The notes beneath the pieces were generated by a model. It ran no database searches and was not told the origin of the DNA. It saw nothing but the letters and a program-made list of their open reading frames with translations. A program made the position numbers and the translations under genes. From IMG/VR virus record IMGVR_UViG_3300024344_000019, positions 1-53,159 of that record: DNA of 53,159 bases; one strand, written 5' to 3'. The stretch comes from a virus (lineage: Duplodnaviria; Caudoviricetes). Positions 3,161 to 52,826 of this stretch are shown one piece after another. How positions within the stretch are numbered: the first letter of the stretch is position 1; each line of letters begins with the position of its first letter.

Positions 3161-3174
3161 GCTTATATTTATTC

Positions 3175-19128: not shown

Positions 19129-19159
19129 TATTTATATACTAACAGTACCGTTTTGTCAA
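19129..19159 (-). promoter_or_regulatory. Overlapping sigma70/late promoter
   Basis: TTGACA(19159-19154)-17-TATAAA, the -10 being part of TATAAATA (19136-19129). Confidence 0.65.
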
Positions 19160-32755: not shown

Positions 32756-32826
32756 ATGTTACTCCTTTTAATAATATTAGAATGTCGCAACCCATATGGG
32801 AAACAATAGACTAATGTTGTTTTAAT

Positions 32827-32856
32827 TATTTATAAGGCGACCCCGAAGGATCGCCT
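32827..32856 (-). promoter_or_regulatory. C(UUCG)G hairpin followed directly by a late promoter
   Basis: AGGCGATCC-TTCG-GGGTCGCCT then TATAAATA (32834-32827). Confidence 0.7.
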
Positions 32857-32870
32857 ATCTATTGAATCAA

Positions 32871-33296
32871 TTACTTGATGTCAATTGTACGAGGTTTCTT
32901 TTCCTCTGGTACGATTTTCTCTAAGTCAATCAAAAGCATTCCATCTTTTAACTTAGCACCATTAACTTTGATATCATCTGCCAAAGTAAATGTTCTACTA
33001 AATTTTCTTTTTGAAATACCTCTATGTAGAGTTTCCTTTTCATCCTTATCATCACTCTCAACTGACTTAATTGTCAATTGACTATTAGCAGATTTAACTT
33101 CAATGTCTTTTTTACCGAAACCAGCAAGTGCCATTTCGATTTGATAATTTAAATCATCTACTTTGTTAATGTTGTAAGGTGGATATGATGTTGGTTGTTT
33201 AACCGTGTACTCTAATGTATTATTAAAGTGGTCAAATAGGTCATCAAAACCTACTGAAAATGGACGTAAATCGTTCCATATAGATAGTCTTGTCAT
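32871..33296 (-). CDS. Small heat shock protein Hsp20
   Basis: SYPPYNI, IEMALAGF, LHRGISKRKFSRTFTL, LKDGML, PRTIDI; start revised to MTRLSIW. Confidence 0.95.
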   Translation of the reverse strand: MTRLSIWNDLRPFSVGFDDLFDHFNNTLEYTVKQPTSYPPYNINKVDDLNYQIEMALAGFGKKDIEVKSANSQLTIKSVESDDKDEKETLHRGISKRKFSRTFTLADDIKVNGAKLKDGMLLIDLEKIVPEEKKPRTIDIK

Positions 33297-33360
33297 TGTT
33301 TTCTCCTTTTTTATAAGCAAGTTAATCTAAATGATACCTCCTAATTGAGCGTATCACAAT

Positions 33361-33368
33361 TATTTATA
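33361..33368 (-). promoter_or_regulatory. T4-type late promoter (hsp20)
   Basis: TATAAATA. Confidence 0.75.
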
Positions 33369-33399
33369 TAAGTATTGTTTTAAAAATTACAACCCCTAT

Positions 33400-33622
33400 A
33401 AAAAAAATATTATTGGCAGAGGTAGGTCTCACCCTCTTTATACTAACGAGTCTTACCTCGCCTATCAGACTAAGGATCCCTATCAATTCTCTGCTACAAA
33501 GACCAATGAGCCAATAAAAGTGCCGTTTTTTTGTCTCGGGTAAACGGCAAAACCCAAATCGGTGTCTTTGCGGAAGACACTCTACCTCTAATGTCAGGAC
33601 TTACGAACTGCCTTGACATTAC
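33400..33622 (-). ncRNA. Candidate structured non-coding RNA (two domains, H-type pseudoknot)
   Basis: GC-elevated stretch with no ORF in the track, directly after TATAAATA (33630-33623); several perfect stems, ends in a U-tract. Confidence 0.65.
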
Positions 33623-33643
33623 TATTTATACGATAAAATACTC

Positions 33644-33961
33644 TTACTGATTAGAATAAGCGTATTTTTGTTTACCGTATAAAGCTCTGATACCAGCAGC
33701 AACGATTTCATTTGTGTTACCTTTTAACACTTTTTGAACGCCTGCAGCTAAAATAGCTTTAGTAGGTGTACCCATACGATATGAAGTACCATCAGCAGTC
33801 TGGTTAATATAAACCATATGACCCTCTGTTCTTAGTTGATCCACCATCGCTCTAGGTGATGTTAAATCAAATTTATTTCTTAGTGAAGTCCATGTTACTG
33901 ACTTACCATTTGATAATAAATTTAGTACTTTTTGTTTTTTTGTTAAGGCTTTTCTACCCAT
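33644..33961 (-). CDS. Winged helix-turn-helix DNA-binding protein
   Basis: TKKQKVLNLLSNGKSVT..LRNKF..PRAMVDQLRTEGHMVY; AAGGAG RBS. Confidence 0.7.
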   Translation of the reverse strand: MGRKALTKKQKVLNLLSNGKSVTWTSLRNKFDLTSPRAMVDQLRTEGHMVYINQTADGTSYRMGTPTKAILAAGVQKVLKGNTNEIVAAGIRALYGKQKYAYSNQ

Positions 33962-34044
33962 AATAAATTACTCCTTCAAGTATTTTGTTGCCTAAGTTTA
34001 TTACATTATTCGATATGGGCAACAGATTCATATCAAGTAATTCT

Positions 34045-34254
34045 TTAATAACCTTCTCTCAAAGTTTTTAATTTTTGTTCTTTTTTAATTCTTCTAATAC
34101 TTTGTTTCTTTGCCTCTCTTTTAATTTCAGAGGGTTTAGAAAAGTATTGACGTTCTTTCATTTCTTTCATAAGACCATCTTTAAGAAGTTTCTTTTTTAA
34201 AACTCTCATGGCCTTTTCTACATTATTATTTCTTACGGTTACTTCTATTGTCAT
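34045..34254 (-). CDS. rpsU: Ribosomal protein bS21
   Basis: VTVRNNNVEKAMRVLKKK...ERQYFSKPSEIKRE. Confidence 0.93.
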   Translation of the reverse strand: MTIEVTVRNNNVEKAMRVLKKKLLKDGLMKEMKERQYFSKPSEIKREAKKQSIRRIKKEQKLKTLREGY

Positions 34255-34596
34255 TTACAATCCATTAATCTTAAACATTCTTAAAATATTTTGACTAGGT
34301 ATTACAGTTGAATTACCACCATCAGATAAATCACCATGTTTATCATAATTGTAATCACTCATCAATATATGTACCTTTCTATCTTTCTTAACTAACCAAC
34401 CAGTTGAAACGCAAGTAGCAGGTTTCATGCCTTGAATTTCTTTTAAAGACTTCCAACCAGCGTCTGATTCGATATCTTCCCAATACACTAAATAAAAATC
34501 ATATGTAAATGGTATTTCTGGAACATCCTCTCTACGATTTTGTTTATTTAAATTCTTCTTTGAATTGTTTTTGGTTCGTTTAATAGTTTTAGTCAT
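34255..34596 (-). CDS. Hypothetical protein
   Basis: VYWEDIESDAGW..CVSTGWL motif common in phage small proteins. Confidence 0.7.
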   Translation of the reverse strand: MTKTIKRTKNNSKKNLNKQNRREDVPEIPFTYDFYLVYWEDIESDAGWKSLKEIQGMKPATCVSTGWLVKKDRKVHILMSDYNYDKHGDLSDGGNSTVIPSQNILRMFKINGL

Positions 34597-48058: not shown

Positions 48059-48070
48059 ATAACTATTTAT

Positions 48071-49549
48071 CTATTCTTTTAACTCAATATTGTGCATTTC
48101 GTAATCAAATTCTTCTTCGGTATAAATGTTTATTCTTTCTTGAAAATGTTTTAATGTAAAGTTTTCTTTTGATTTATAAGTTAAATCATCTGCTATATCA
48201 TACAAAGTAGCATTAACCTTATTGTCACCTAATCTTAAACCACGACCTATACTTTGTAAATTTCTTATTCTACTCTTTGAAGGACTTGCAAAAATAATAT
48301 TGTGTAAGTTTTTAATATTAACACCAGTAGAAAATGTACCATAACTTGCAACAATAATAGCATTCTTTTCTTTTTCTACTATGCCTCTAATTGCTTCTCT
48401 TTCATCTGCTTCGACACCACCAAAAATATAAAAAACTTTTCGATTTTTACCAGCCTTCTCTTTTATTATTTCATGTAAATTTTTACCATGTTTTTCTACT
48501 AGTTGAAATAATACTAAAGTATTACCTTTTAATTTAAGTGCTAAGTTTTTAATAAAATTTTGTCTTGATTTGCTACTTACTAGATAATCTATCTCATCTT
48601 GATATTTACCATTTACAACCATCTTACTATTTTCTGCTGTATGTTTTAAGATTAAACAACGAACCACTAAATTAGATAGTTGTTTTTTATCCATAAGTTT
48701 TCTTGTAGATGTAACTTTATTTACAGCACCAAATAATCCCTCTAATACTAGTTTGTGAGTTTGAGCACCATCAAGTGTACCAGTAAGACCAATACGATAT
48801 TTACAATCTTCAAGTTTTGTCATAATCTCTGTAAGTGATTTAGATTTAAATAAGTGTGCTTCATCACCAAATACAACACCAAACTGTTCAAAATATTTTT
48901 TCGGCAACTTGTATAAACTTTGCCATGTAGATATTAGTACTTTTTTAGTTGTTTGATTTGAATATCCACTATACAATCTATGACAATTTTTCTTTACATT
49001 CCAACCATACGATTCGAAGTCTGAATACATCTGCTCAACCAACGAGGTTGTCGGTACAATCAATAATATTCGATTGTTAGGGTTATCTTTAATTAAGTGA
49101 GAATAATATCGTATTAACGAATATATGATGAATGACTTACCTGACGCTGTAGGACTTAGTAGCAACGCCCTATTGAACTTTAAACTATGATATATGGCGT
49201 CTATCTGATAGTCTCTTGCCTCAAATTTTTGACCTAGACTATTAGAAAACTTTTTAACTATTTCTTTATCTACACTATTATTAATCTCAACATCTTTGCC
49301 TGCAACAATCTGATATCCTCGTTCTTCAGCAAAGGCTCTAATGTAGGGAAATAGTCCAAAGTAAATTTCTTTTGTTTTTTGAGAGTATAATCTTATCTTA
49401 CCATCCCACATACGATTACGGAATGCTGGCATAAACTTATATCCAGGAACATAAAATGTAAAGAACTCTGATATTTCTCGTTGAATGTTTTGGTCACAAT
49501 CAACGGTTATATAGACTTCGTTTTTCTTTTCAATGATTAAAGTATCCAT
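48071..49549 (-). CDS. uvsW: SF2 DNA helicase UvsW
   Basis: WDGKIRL, SPTASGKS, DEAH, GLTGT, QSIGRGLR. Confidence 0.96.
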   Translation of the reverse strand: MDTLIIEKKNEVYITVDCDQNIQREISEFFTFYVPGYKFMPAFRNRMWDGKIRLYSQKTKEIYFGLFPYIRAFAEERGYQIVAGKDVEINNSVDKEIVKKFSNSLGQKFEARDYQIDAIYHSLKFNRALLLSPTASGKSFIIYSLIRYYSHLIKDNPNNRILLIVPTTSLVEQMYSDFESYGWNVKKNCHRLYSGYSNQTTKKVLISTWQSLYKLPKKYFEQFGVVFGDEAHLFKSKSLTEIMTKLEDCKYRIGLTGTLDGAQTHKLVLEGLFGAVNKVTSTRKLMDKKQLSNLVVRCLILKHTAENSKMVVNGKYQDEIDYLVSSKSRQNFIKNLALKLKGNTLVLFQLVEKHGKNLHEIIKEKAGKNRKVFYIFGGVEADEREAIRGIVEKEKNAIIVASYGTFSTGVNIKNLHNIIFASPSKSRIRNLQSIGRGLRLGDNKVNATLYDIADDLTYKSKENFTLKHFQERINIYTEEEFDYEMHNIELKE

Positions 49550-52118: not shown

Positions 52119-52718
52119 CTATGTAGTAGATATCTGTATTATATCATAATTCATATAATTAAAACTAACCGAAGCACGTAGATAATCAACATCGGTTTGT
52201 GTTACATCATAATTTAAACTACCCAAAGATGTGGGATAGACATTTTGAAATCTTATTTCTGTTTTAGCAATATTCTTACTATTTAAAACTGTTAGTATTG
52301 CGTCTGAATATATACCACCTTCAGAAAGTGGTGCTGGTGTTTGAACACCAGGCACAGTTGGGCCTGCAGTTGAACCAGGAAATCTATCTGAACCTGCTGT
52401 TTGTAAATCAGCAAATTGTTGATGATTACTCGGGAACCCTAAGCCAAGTATCCAATCATGTATCTCTTTATAGTTGTTTAAATTTTCATCAACAAGAAAT
52501 GACATATCAAGAGCCGCAAAAGTTATTTTATCTCCAGGCAAAGGCATATCATACAATGGAGTATTTTGTTGTGCTGAACCTAGATTGATACCTGGTATGT
52601 TAGCACTTTGTACAAAGAACTCTACTGTTGGAAGTTTAGTACACTTGAACCTAAACTGAATAGGACTAGCATAATCACTTTTAGAAGGTTCTCTTTGAAT
52701 TACATTTGTTGTTGTCAT
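52119..52718 (-). CDS. 3: Tail tube terminator / tail completion protein (gp3-like)
   Basis: VEFFVQSANIPGI, PGDKITF, FLVDENLNNYKEIHDW, FQNVYPTSLG; late promoter TATAAATA 52731-52724. Confidence 0.85.
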   Translation of the reverse strand: MTTTNVIQREPSKSDYASPIQFRFKCTKLPTVEFFVQSANIPGINLGSAQQNTPLYDMPLPGDKITFAALDMSFLVDENLNNYKEIHDWILGLGFPSNHQQFADLQTAGSDRFPGSTAGPTVPGVQTPAPLSEGGIYSDAILTVLNSKNIAKTEIRFQNVYPTSLGSLNYDVTQTDVDYLRASVSFNYMNYDIIQISTT

Positions 52719-52826
52719 ACTACTATTTATAACAGTTTTTAGGGGGTACTATCATATCACCGTGTTCTCTTTTCCGTCTCAGGCGGCGGCTATGACAATC
52801 TTTTTTTGAGGGTTTTGATAGAATAC

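What the first reader, a model, noticed from the sequence alone, without database searches (positions are those of the whole stretch)
33400..33630. Candidate novel structured ncRNA with an H-type pseudoknot beside the bS21 operon
Seen on the minus strand straight after TATAAATA: stem UAAUGUCA/UGACAUUA (33621-33589); stem GUGUCUU/AAGACAC (33580-33562); an H-type pseudoknot with S1 UUUGGGU/ACCCGAG and S2 UGCCGUUU/AAACGGCA (33558-33521); then a second ~105 nt domain closed by UAUUGGC/GCCAAUA (33516-33411) and a U-tract. The 3' CUACCUCUGC has three possible partners (5' AGAGGUAG, internal GAGGUA, GCAGAG), suggesting a conformational switch. The track shows no ORF here, and hsp20 has its own promoter downstream, so this looks like a stand-alone late RNA or a tandem pair. 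I do not recognise it as tRNA, tmRNA or a known riboswitch.
Basis: partly seen in the sequence, partly recalled or inferred. Interest (0 to 1): 0.82.

Follow-up and report, generated by a model that had tools for sequence, protein, structure and literature searches.

The report
Conserved pseudoknotted RNA of SAR11 myophages
The gene-free stretch between a small regulator-like gene and the heat-shock gene of this ocean phage encodes a real, evolution-supported folded RNA made of two pseudoknotted modules that is in no RNA catalogue searched, and whose job is still only inferred.

Summary
On the minus strand, 33630-33400 carries a TATAAATA box, then module 1 (33621-33513: hairpin H1, invariant GAGGUAGA, hairpin H2, H-type pseudoknot), then module 2 (33518-33405: closing stem P1, a second pseudoknot, U8 tract). 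One sequence alone folds no better than shuffles (z -1.76). Comparison decides it. 63 distinct module 1 copies are 97.7% paired against 86.9% when shuffled, with 12 of 21 pairs compensatory. 23 module 2 copies are 93.5% against 81.7%, 12 of 24 compensatory. Pseudoknot stem S1 passes a cognate versus permuted-loop test.

Rfam 15 has no match. The stretch is not coding. The family occurs in HTVC008M, Mosig and Melnitz but in none of 3 cyanomyophages. The core pattern matches 100 IMG/VR stretches and no cellular genome.

It is not a leader of hsp20: 5 loci keep the RNA without hsp20. The proposed three-partner switch is not supported. Best reading: a self-standing late small RNA, function unknown; a link to phage bS21 is a lead only. 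No transcript ends could be shown. This scan found the same family before on other DNA.

The parts
33623..33630 (-). T4-type late-promoter-like box TATAAATA, 13 nt after the stop of the upstream gene
   Evidence: Sequence. All 7 TATAAATA copies in the window are on the minus strand, and 11.6 are expected on both strands by chance. The same box sits 5 nt before an ATG at four other genes. It reads CATAAATA in HTVC008M and GATAAATA in Mosig. Promoter activity is inferred, not shown.
33589..33621 (-). Hairpin H1 of module 1. Covarying core is 33617-33593. The loop with the UCGUAA motif is the most conserved feature of the family.
   Evidence: 5 of 9 pairs show compensatory change and 97.5% of cells are paired. 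The loop motif is kept in HTVC008M, Mosig and Melnitz.
33581..33588 (-). Linker GAGGUAGA (with G33580 it reads GAGGUAGAG), unpaired and invariant
   Evidence: Invariant in 63 of 63 main-clade sequences. Absent from HTVC008M-type copies.
33562..33580 (-). Hairpin H2, GUGUCUU/AAGACAC with invariant loop CCGCA
   Evidence: 7 pairs, 2 with compensatory and 2 with one-sided change, 99.8% paired.
33521..33558 (-). H-type pseudoknot: S1 33558-33553 with 33540-33535; L1 UUU 33552-33550; S2 33549-33542 with 33528-33521; A-rich L3 33534-33529
   Evidence: S2 has 5 of 5 core pairs compensatory. S1 passes the cognate versus permuted-loop test, 0 of 5000 and 10 of 5000. S1 types seen: GGG/CCC, GAG/CUC, AGG/CCU, GCC/GGC and CAG/CUG.
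33513..33520 (-). Weak U-rich tract CUUUUAUU after S2. Its last bases overlap the start of module 2.
   Evidence: Sequence. A U run of 4 or more follows S2 in 6 of 22 copies with module 2 and in 21 of 41 without it.
33405..33518 (-). Module 2: P1 33515-33510 with 33417-33412; pseudoknot P2 33504-33499 with 33430-33425; P3a 33493-33490 with 33469-33466; P3b 33460-33457 with 33450-33447 (loop GUAAGA); P4 33436-33433 with 33422-33419
   Evidence: Pair counts on A3. CM R2 scores 97.4 bits on the window, and gives 44 matches over 100 sources, one per source. The placement of each match next to module 1 was checked only on examples and on the loci. Module 2 is also in Mosig (70 bits) and absent from many close relatives.
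33400..33407 (-). U8 tract directly after P1 of module 2, the likely end of the transcript in this window
   Evidence: Sequence. A U run of 4 or more follows P1 in 15 of 22 copies. Termination is inferred; the simple terminator scan lists nothing here.
33361..33368 (-). Separate TATAAATA box of hsp20 (context, not part of the RNA)
   Evidence: It is kept upstream of hsp20 in relatives.
33644..33961 (-). Upstream gene, 105 aa, winged-helix-like (context)
   Evidence: Pfam HTH_39 at 20.6 bits, just under the 21.3-bit cut-off. It lies directly upstream of the RNA in 94 of 98 IMG/VR loci; the other 4 are cut by a contig end.
34045..34254 (-). Phage ribosomal protein bS21 gene (context)
   Evidence: Pfam Ribosomal_S21 at 57.1 bits. 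S21 lies upstream in 69 of 75 loci that have enough upstream DNA.
32871..33296 (-). hsp20 gene (context)
   Evidence: Pfam HSP20 at 70.4 bits.

Best explanation
This is a small structured RNA gene of its own, conserved in the T4-like myophages of SAR11 and OM43 (pelagimyophage group).

Inferred steps:
- Late in infection, transcription starts about 6 nt after the TATAAATA box, near G33617, which is the first covarying pair of H1.
- The transcript folds into module 1: a 5'-terminal hairpin with a fixed UCGUAA loop, a fixed single-stranded GAGGUAGA, a second hairpin, and an H-type pseudoknot whose second stem is terminator-like.
- In this window it most likely runs on through module 2 and ends at the U8 tract (33407-33400). 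That gives an RNA of about 215 nt; relatives without module 2 would make about 105 nt.
- The invariant loops and linker, which are kept better than the neighbouring coding DNA, are contact sites. The RNA therefore acts in trans as a protein- or ribosome-binding RNA, not as a cis-regulator of hsp20. The two compact pseudoknots give the fold and protect the 3' end.

Shown: the fold, its strand, its conservation, its independence from hsp20, and its absence from Rfam.

Inferred only: the promoter, the start, the ends, the trans action and the partner.
For: Fold and strand.

Not coding:
- An ATG is present in 38 of 63 copies.
- An ORF of 27 or more codons is present in 7 of 63.
- Variable columns fall 19/31, 19/32 and 18/32 by codon phase.

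Conservation: the H1-H2 half averages 87.7% nt identity to the window, against 81.1% for the upstream gene and 79.3% for hsp20. It is higher than the upstream gene in 59 of 62 loci and higher than hsp20 in 55 of 62.

Promoter and start:
- The box is kept in the 63 aligned main-clade copies (they were picked by that box) and, with one base changed, in HTVC008M and Mosig.
- The box-N5-ATG arrangement at four other genes places the start about 6 nt after the box.
- Compensatory pairs of H1 begin exactly there; the two outer column pairs do not covary.

Independence from neighbours:
- 5 of 98 loci have the RNA followed by an early-type promoter and the clamp gene, with no hsp20.
- Genes are inserted between the RNA and hsp20 in L007, L105 and L212.
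- In Mosig the RNA follows S21 directly, and a 323-aa gene separates it from hsp20.
- In Melnitz the upstream gene has its own hairpin plus U run before the RNA.

One unit with module 2: the strong U run tends to sit after S2 when module 2 is absent (21 of 41) and after P1 when it is present (15 of 22, against 6 of 22 after S2).

Copy number: one copy in the window's own record.

RNA libraries: contigs from 4 marine metatranscriptome runs of 4 studies cover parts of the stretch.
Against: - No transcript start, end, strand or level was seen. All runs were assembled contigs, and DNA carry-over cannot be excluded.
- Several contigs bridge the upstream gene and H1 (for example 33566-33834 and 33584-33781). 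This fits read-through as well as a promoter of its own.
- The terminator scan finds nothing in 32800-34300.
- The loop of S2 is 13 nt here, longer than in textbook terminators.
- 20 of 41 copies without module 2 have no U run of 4 after S2. About a dozen of these abut the hsp20 box directly, so in them the RNA may run into hsp20.
- Melnitz has TATATAATA instead of the late box.
- No partner is known.
- The GAGGUAGA linker is missing from HTVC008M-type copies, so it cannot be the universal active site.
Confidence: 0.58

Rival explanations
1. It is the structured 3' end (3' UTR) of the upstream operon (S21 and the winged-helix gene). It acts in cis to stop transcription and shield the mRNA from 3' exonucleases, or it is cut off as a 3'-UTR-derived RNA.
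For: - It always lies on the same strand directly after an ORF. It follows the winged-helix gene in 94 of 98 loci; the other 4 are cut by a contig end.
- S21 lies upstream in 69 of 75 loci.
- Contigs from RNA libraries run from that gene into H1.
- S2 plus a U run is terminator-like in about half of the copies.
Against: - The upstream gene differs: S21 itself in Mosig, and a 319-aa gene with its own hairpin and U run in Melnitz.
- A promoter-like box is kept between the stop codon and H1.
- Invariant loops and an invariant linker, kept better than the coding DNA, are more than a terminator needs.
- Five records with the RNA have no S21 at all in the fragment.
Confidence: 0.22
2. It is a long cis-acting leader of hsp20, a riboswitch or thermosensor that controls read-through into hsp20.
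For: - hsp20 follows the RNA in 93 of 98 loci, 89 of them between the two usual neighbours.
- About a dozen copies have no U run between S2 and the hsp20 box.
- An earlier agent filed the family as a leader.
Against: - 5 loci keep the RNA but have no hsp20.
- Genes of 0.6-1.5 kb are inserted between the RNA and hsp20 in L212, L007 and L105.
- In Mosig another gene lies between them.
- hsp20 has its own box and its own ROSE-like leader.
- The pseudoknot does not compete with the S2 hairpin, so no switch is apparent.
Confidence: 0.06
3. Module 2 alone is a separate, gain-and-loss accessory element, selfish or mobile, or a small ribozyme or aptamer cassette, that has landed behind module 1.
For: - It is present in 42 of the 98 module 1 loci and window searched with R2 (44 matches over 100 sources, which include Mosig with it and HTVC008M without it).
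- Its presence or absence differs between close relatives with sharp borders.
- One RNA-library contig skips 33401-33514.
- L006 and L101 keep only P1 and one hairpin.
- Other inserts occupy the same site in L109-type loci.
Against: - There is never more than one copy per locus, and none elsewhere in the 53-kb window or in the Mosig genome.
- Where its place was checked it lies directly behind module 1.
- No Rfam ribozyme or riboswitch match.
- The shift of the U run fits one transcript with module 1.
Confidence: 0.1
4. The stretch encodes a small protein: the 41-aa ORF 33619-33494 or the 40-aa ORF 33486-33364.
For: Both ORFs are listed mechanically.
Against: - The ATG is kept in 38 of 63 copies.
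- The frame stays open for 27 or more codons in only 7 of 63, and stops after 1-5 codons in 31.
- Variable columns are spread evenly over the codon phases.
- Indels of 1 nt are compensated within stems rather than within frames.
Confidence: 0.02

Closest known systems
bS21-binding P6 region of OLE RNA (Wencker, Lyon and Breaker 2025, PMC12054373; abstract and section 6 read)
   Same: - A structured noncoding RNA linked to ribosomal protein bS21.
- In OLE, bS21 binds a helix that mimics the Shine-Dalgarno/anti-SD duplex, and conserved G-C pairs are decisive.
- Here P4 of module 2 is GAGG/CCUC with three invariant G-C pairs.
- S1 of module 1 is a purine strand on a pyrimidine strand.
- The RNA co-occurs with a phage bS21 gene in 3 of 3 cultured phages that have it, while 2 of 2 cyanomyophages tested for S21 have neither.
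   Different: - No sequence or model similarity to OLE; Rfam gave no match.
- OLE is about 600 nt, from Bacillota, and not from phages.
- The SD-like letters of P4 are not kept: GUGG/CCAC in 11 of 23 copies and GGGG/CCCC in Mosig.
- Module 2 is optional.
- In Melnitz S21 lies about 100 kb away.
- Binding was not tested.
H-type pseudoknot riboswitch aptamers of SAR11 and relatives (SAM-II, SAM-V, preQ1-II). Named from recall; their Rfam models were in the scans.
   Same: A classical H-type pseudoknot with a short U-rich L1 and an A-rich L3, in a phage whose host relies on riboswitches.
   Different: - No Rfam match even at E up to 10.
- The pseudoknot sits at the 3' end of a non-leader RNA.
- It is not followed by a regulated gene in 5 loci.
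- No alternative fold was found.
- The pelagimyophage comparative paper reports that Riboswitch Scanner found no riboswitches in these phages (PMC7029224, passages).
T4 late promoters set at or inside hairpins of read-through transcripts (genes e, soc, 49, I-TevI). Recalled, and named by earlier agents of this scan.
   Same: A TATAAATA box lies just before or at the foot of a hairpin. A late transcript would therefore start inside the longer hairpin that a read-through transcript can form (outer H1 pairs 33621-33618 with 33592-33589).
   Different: In T4 the hairpin hides a ribosome-binding site of a downstream gene. Here no gene or ribosome-binding site is involved, and the structure downstream is conserved for its own sake.
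Stable small RNAs of T4 (RNA C and RNA D) and the two-domain pRNA of phi29. Recalled; not compared by any search.
   Same: Phage-encoded stable structured RNAs of 100-200 nt. phi29 pRNA also has a dispensable second domain.
   Different: - T4 RNAs C and D are processed from the tRNA cluster.
- pRNA belongs to phi29-like podoviruses and their packaging motor.
- No similarity was tested or is claimed.
Orphan structured RNA motifs found by comparative metagenomics in marine phages and bacteria (for example manA, wcaG and IMES in Rfam). Names recalled.
   Same: Same kind of evidence (covariation, metagenomic abundance) and same status (function unknown).
   Different: None of these models matches. 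This family is specific to the pelagimyophage group and holds two pseudoknots.

Membership tests
Any Rfam 15 family (tRNA, tmRNA, riboswitches, ribozymes, OLE, ROSE and the rest) | Covariance-model score at or above the family's gathering score | tested here: not met
   - 0 matches in the whole window.
- In E-value mode on 33100-33900, the only row inside the stretch is SNORD53_SNORD92 at 14.8 bits against a 46-bit cut-off, E 7.6.
- Nothing on the RNA in six related loci, 40,355 bases.
- ARAGORN found 0 genes.
Classical H-type pseudoknot | Two stems in which the 3' strand of S1 lies in the loop of S2, both supported by covariation | tested here: met
   S2 has 5 of 5 pairs compensatory. S1 gives 4.16 against 3.42 consecutive pairs, 0 of 5000 permutations, and 10 of 5000 with one representative per type. 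One clade (L064, L070, L059, L076, L144) fits poorly in this register.
Classical H-type pseudoknot | Short L1 across S2 and a longer A-rich L3 across S1 | tested here: met
   L1 is UUU (2-5 nt in relatives) and L3 is ACAAAA here.
Intrinsic (Rho-independent) terminator | G+C-rich hairpin with a short loop | tested here: not met
   The S2 stem is real, but its loop is 13 nt here and 7-32 nt in relatives. The consensus scan lists 0 sites in 32800-34300.
Intrinsic (Rho-independent) terminator | Run of U directly after the hairpin | tested here: inconclusive
   A U run of 4 or more follows S2 in 27 of 63 copies, and follows P1 of module 2 in 15 of 22. This window has U8 at 33407-33400.
T4-type late promoter | TATAAATA box on the coding strand upstream of the transcribed unit | tested here: met
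   Box at 33630-33623. All 7 copies in the window are on the minus strand. It is kept in relatives, with a changed first base in HTVC008M and Mosig.
T4-type late promoter | Transcript start a few bases downstream, dependent on the late sigma factor | not testable with these tools
   Only contigs of RNA libraries were on hand.
Cis-regulatory leader of hsp20 (ROSE-type or riboswitch) | Constant linkage to the regulated gene with no intervening promoter or gene | tested here: not met
   5 of 98 loci lack hsp20. There are inserted genes in L007, L105 and L212. hsp20 has its own box at 33368-33361.
bS21-binding SD/anti-SD mimic helix (OLE P6 type) | Helix of an anti-SD-like strand on an SD-like strand with conserved G-C pairs | tested here: inconclusive
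   P4 is GAGG/CCUC here, with 3 invariant G-C pairs. The fourth pair is A-U in 11, U-A in 11 and G-C in 1 of 23 copies, so the SD letters are not kept. The OLE data also tolerate changed letters if pairing and the G-C pairs stay.
bS21-binding SD/anti-SD mimic helix (OLE P6 type) | Direct binding of bS21 | not testable with these tools
   No tool folds or docks RNA with protein.
Small protein-coding gene | Conserved open frame and codon-phase pattern of change | tested here: not met

The most novel reading that the evidence does not exclude
The RNA is the phage's partner for ribosomal protein bS21, a viral counterpart in function (not in descent) of the bS21-binding helix of OLE RNA.

Its purine-on-pyrimidine helices (S1 and P4) and its SD-like GAGGUAGA would bind phage or host bS21, or the anti-SD tail of 16S rRNA, late in infection. 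That would shift translation, for example towards the leaderless-looking late mRNAs that start 5 nt after TATAAATA boxes in this genome.

This would make it the first phage RNA known to act on the ribosome together with a phage-encoded ribosomal protein.
Probability: 0.12. Interest if true: 0.85.

Novelty: new variant of a known kind. Interest (0 to 1): 0.62.

Why it matters
Pelagimyophages infect SAR11, among the most abundant bacteria in the sea. Their comparative genomics reported no regulatory RNAs: Riboswitch Scanner found none (PMC7029224, passages).

This family is a core noncoding gene of that phage group.
- It is present in all three cultured representatives tested (HTVC008M, Mosig, Melnitz).
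- Its core pattern matches 100 IMG/VR stretches.
- Part of it is kept better than the neighbouring protein-coding DNA.
- It sits in a neighbourhood of translation-related genes: bS21, and a tRNA just upstream of S21 in HTVC008M.

If it is a ribosome- or bS21-binding RNA, it would make directly testable the open question of why these phages carry a ribosomal protein. Even without a function it corrects annotations: three 'hypothetical proteins' in GenBank records overlap it. It also adds a double-pseudoknot RNA class for structural work.

Tried and rejected
**Long-range pairing of module 1 GAGGUAG with module 2 CUACCUC.** Rejected: CCUC covaries with the local GAGG, while the module 1 linker never changes.

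**Small ORFs.** Rejected.

**hsp20 leader.** Rejected as the main reading.

**Host homologue.** The 27-nt core pattern has 0 matches in 185,579 species genomes. No looser host search was made.

**Expression.** 18 RNA-labelled runs hold part of the stretch. Four were laid. Contigs cannot show ends, strand or level. Several contigs stop at 33584, but these are assembly contigs in a region shared by many strains, so I draw nothing from that. Parts without cover prove nothing.

**Tertiary contact.** The H1 loop and the linker after H2 (alignment A2, columns 18 and 93) are canonical in 60 of 68 sequences, but the neighbouring columns do not fit. Unresolved.

**Weak R2 matches.** HTVC008M 52458-52556 lies inside a baseplate gene and is chance. 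P-SSM3 at 19.9 bits was not followed.

**First literature search.** Too broad, nothing useful.

**Literature for this RNA.**
- Searches.
- Passages read: PMC7029224 and PMC12379486.
- No paper found describes it. Subscription journals and supplements were not seen and may hold it, for instance sRNA lists from ocean metatranscriptomes.

**Rows dropped.**
- A1 holds 63 of the 74 distinct spacers. L046 and L047 have no exact box. L045 and L056 have no CCGCA. The other 7 became identical after trimming.
- One search dropped Mosig because no U run of 2 or more precedes S2 there.
- A3 holds 23 of the 24 distinct module 2 copies; L209 was left out because it differs only in its last bases.
Full report
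**What is there.**

The window is a 53,159-base virus record, estimated 29% complete, of a T4-like phage of the pelagimyophage group. The nearest named records are Pelagibacter phages Mosig EXVC030M and HTVC008M.

Gene order on the minus strand:
- an AAA ATPase gene
- a 113-aa ORF
- ribosomal protein bS21, 34254-34045 (Pfam 57.1 bits)
- a 105-aa winged-helix-like gene, 33961-33644 (HTH_39, 20.6 bits, just under the cut-off)
- a 347-nt spacer, 33643-33297
- hsp20, 33296-32871 (Pfam 70.4 bits)

**Is it more than chance?**

The single sequence is not. Its MFE of -63.3 kcal/mol has z -1.76, and 14 of 200 shuffles fold as well. The case rests on relatives.

- Protein-anchored searches of IMG/VR gave 149 loci that hold both flanking genes, with 74 distinct spacers of 121-384 nt and two of about 1650 nt.
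- The first 130 nt of the spacer are 94-97% identical even in loci that lack the next 105 nt.
- A MAFFT alignment of 63 distinct copies of this first part (A1) gives an RNAalifold consensus of three hairpins. 12 of 21 pairs carry compensatory changes.
- 97.7% of cells are paired against 86.9% in column shuffles, with 0 of 500 shuffles as high. Only 34-46% are paired when partners are slid by 1-3 columns.
- G-U pairs outnumber A-C by 76 to 1, so the fold belongs to the gene-sense strand.

**The pseudoknot.**

S2 (33549-33542 with 33528-33521) is the best-supported helix: 5 of 5 core pairs are compensatory.

S1 (33558-33553 with 33540-33535) lies partly in badly alignable loop sequence. I tested it with an anchored script: the bases before the U-rich L1 against the start of the S2 loop, with cognate pairs compared with loops permuted among sequence classes.
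- 38 classes give 4.16 consecutive pairs against 3.42 +/- 0.18, 0 of 5000 permutations.
- One representative per 4-mer type (13) gives 3.85 against 2.84, 10 of 5000.

The three pairs next to L1 read GGG/CCC, GAG/CUC, AGG/CCU, GCC/GGC (L045, L046) and CAG/CUG (Mosig). One clade (L064, L070, L059, L076, L144) fits poorly in this register. L1 is short and U-rich and L3 is A-rich, the classical H-type geometry.

**The second domain.**

The stretch 33518-33405 is a separate module. I aligned 23 of its 24 distinct copies (A3). They support:
- P1 (33515-33510 with 33417-33412), 4 of 6 pairs compensatory
- P3b, 4 of 4 compensatory
- P4 (GAGG with CCUC), one pair that is A-U in 11, U-A in 11 and G-C in 1 sequence
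- a pseudoknot P2 (GGUCUU 33504-33499 with GAGACC 33430-33425, inside the loop of P4), 100% paired, with one pair changed U-A to C-G in 3 sequences

Overall 93.5% of cells are paired against 81.7% shuffled, 0 of 500, and slid controls give 35-54%. A divergent copy (L165) has P1 fully exchanged, ACGAG with CUCGU.

Module 2 is optional. Model R2 finds it once per source in 44 of 100 sources. These are the window, Mosig and 42 of 97 IMG/VR loci; HTVC008M lacks it.

**The proposed switch fails.**

The 3' CCUC pairs locally, as shown by its covariation. The GAGGUAGAG of module 1 is invariant in all 63 copies, including those whose module 2 reads CCAC.

**What it is not.**

- *Not in Rfam 15.* There are 0 matches in the window, nothing but a chance snoRNA row in E-value mode, and nothing on the RNA in six related loci. 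ARAGORN finds no tRNA or tmRNA.
- *Not coding*.
- *Not a leader of hsp20.* Of 98 IMG/VR loci that hold the 27-nt core, 89 have the order winged-helix gene, RNA, hsp20, and 4 are cut upstream. In 5 the RNA is followed by an early-type promoter and the sliding-clamp gene, with no hsp20. Genes are inserted between the RNA and hsp20 in L007, L105 and L212.
- *Not tied to one upstream gene.* In Mosig the RNA, both modules, follows S21 directly and overlaps two annotated 'hypothetical proteins'. In HTVC008M module 1 (45.1 bits) follows gp110. In Melnitz, a phage of OM43, module 1 (34.4 bits) overlaps another 'hypothetical protein'. There it is preceded by the upstream gene's own hairpin and U run.

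**Distribution.**

Three cyanomyophage genomes (P-TIM40, P-SSM3, S-TIM4) have no match to model R1 at E up to 0.1. The core pattern matches 100 IMG/VR stretches and no genome among 185,579 prokaryote species.

**How it most likely works.**

*Promoter and start.* The TATAAATA box is kept 3 nt before H1; it reads CATAAATA in HTVC008M and GATAAATA in Mosig. In the window all 7 copies of the box lie on the coding strand, and the motif is rarer than chance. At four genes a box of this type stands exactly 5 nt before the ATG, which suggests starts about 6 nt after the box. For the RNA that is G33617. It is also the first H1 pair with compensatory change; the two outer column pairs do not covary. I therefore infer a late transcript that begins at the foot of H1.

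*End.* The end is less clear. A U run of 4 or more follows S2 in 21 of 41 copies without module 2, but in only 6 of 22 with it. In the copies with module 2, 15 of 22 have the run after P1. This fits one transcript over both modules, ending here at U8 (33407-33400). About a dozen copies abut the hsp20 box with no U run, and the simple terminator scan finds nothing.

*Mode of action.* The H1-H2 half is kept better than the flanking coding DNA: 87.7% against 81.1% and 79.3%. The invariant parts are loops and a linker. That points to contacts with a partner, so I favour a trans-acting, protein- or ribosome-binding RNA.

None of the transcription steps is shown. The RNA-library data were contigs only, they also cover the flanking genes, and some bridge the upstream gene and H1.

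**The bS21 lead.**

Earlier agents of this scan met the same family in at least eight other windows. They called it real, uncatalogued and of unknown function, and several pointed to OLE RNA. I read that paper's abstract and section 6. There bS21 binds an OLE helix that mimics the SD/anti-SD duplex, conserved G-C pairs are decisive, and changed letters are tolerated.

Points in favour here:
- P4 is GAGG/CCUC with three invariant G-C pairs.
- S1 is a purine strand on a pyrimidine strand.
- The linker is SD-like.
- S21 lies upstream in 69 of 75 loci with enough DNA.
- The three cultured phages with the RNA all encode S21, and two cyanomyophages tested have neither.

Points against:
- The SD letters of P4 are not kept.
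- Module 2 is optional.
- The linker is missing in HTVC008M-type copies.
- In Melnitz S21 lies about 100 kb from the RNA.
- Five fragmentary records with the RNA hold no S21.
- Co-occurrence is confounded by common descent.

I keep this as the boldest reading not excluded, at about 0.12.

**Novelty and verdict.**

The switch does not, and the stand-alone transcript is unproven.

No paper found in four searches and two sets of read passages describes it. Supplements and subscription journals were not seen.

It is a new family within a known kind, the orphan phage-encoded structured RNAs. It is notable for two pseudoknots, its conservation and its link to translation genes in the phages of SAR11.

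Noticed in passing
window 33357-33293 (minus strand): The hsp20 leader has a conserved 5' hairpin (GAUAC..GUAUC, with a compensatory change in L079). A second hairpin pairs CUU(G)CUU with the AAGGAG ribosome-binding site, like a ROSE thermometer. Rfam ROSE_3 scores 24.6 bits here and 27.7 bits in L165, both under the 43-bit cut-off.
   Followed up: partly
window 52724-52731, 48064-48071, 19129-19136, 3166-3173 (minus strand): A late-type box (T/G/A)ATAAATA stands exactly 5 nt before an ATG of an ORF of 50 aa or more. This would give leaderless or nearly leaderless late mRNAs. It is of interest beside a phage-encoded bS21.
   Followed up: no
L109, L113, L126, L127, L137 (after module 1); L040, L051 (inside the hsp20 leader); L006, L101: Other inserts occupy the same site: a different element of about 80 nt in L109-type loci, and an element of about 60 nt inside the hsp20 leader in L040 and L051. 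L006 and L101 hold a cut-down module 2 that keeps only P1 and one hairpin. The spacer is a hot spot for structured modules.
   Followed up: no
L001 1611-1730 and 1743-1859 (Mosig_00015, Mosig_00014); L260 3305-3409 (MelnitzEXVC044M_222): Three annotated 'hypothetical proteins' in GenBank phage records overlap the RNA and are probably not genes.
   Followed up: partly
L259 3913-3983 (HTVC008M): A tRNA gene (49.5 bits) lies directly upstream of the S21 gene, giving the order tRNA, S21, gp110, RNA, hsp20.
   Followed up: no
L007/L090, L105/L053 (about 1.5 kb) and L212 (210-aa ORF): Extra genes are inserted between the RNA and hsp20, each behind its own late-type box in L007 and L105.
   Followed up: no
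alignment A2, columns 18 and 93 (window about 33607 and 33560): A variable base of the H1 loop and a base of the linker after H2 form canonical pairs in 60 of 68 sequences, with four pair types. The neighbouring columns do not fit. This is either a tertiary contact or shared descent.
   Followed up: partly
window 33401-33514: One contig of an RNA library joins 33400 to 33515 and so lacks module 2. DNA contigs without module 2 exist too, so this is a strain variant and not evidence of splicing.
   Followed up: partly
NC_021559.1 59475-59609 (P-SSM3, minus strand): Weak match of the module 2 model (19.9 bits, E 0.05 for the genome) with UUGGU..ACCA and AGG..CCUACCU features. It is far from hsp20. 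It may be chance.
   Followed up: no
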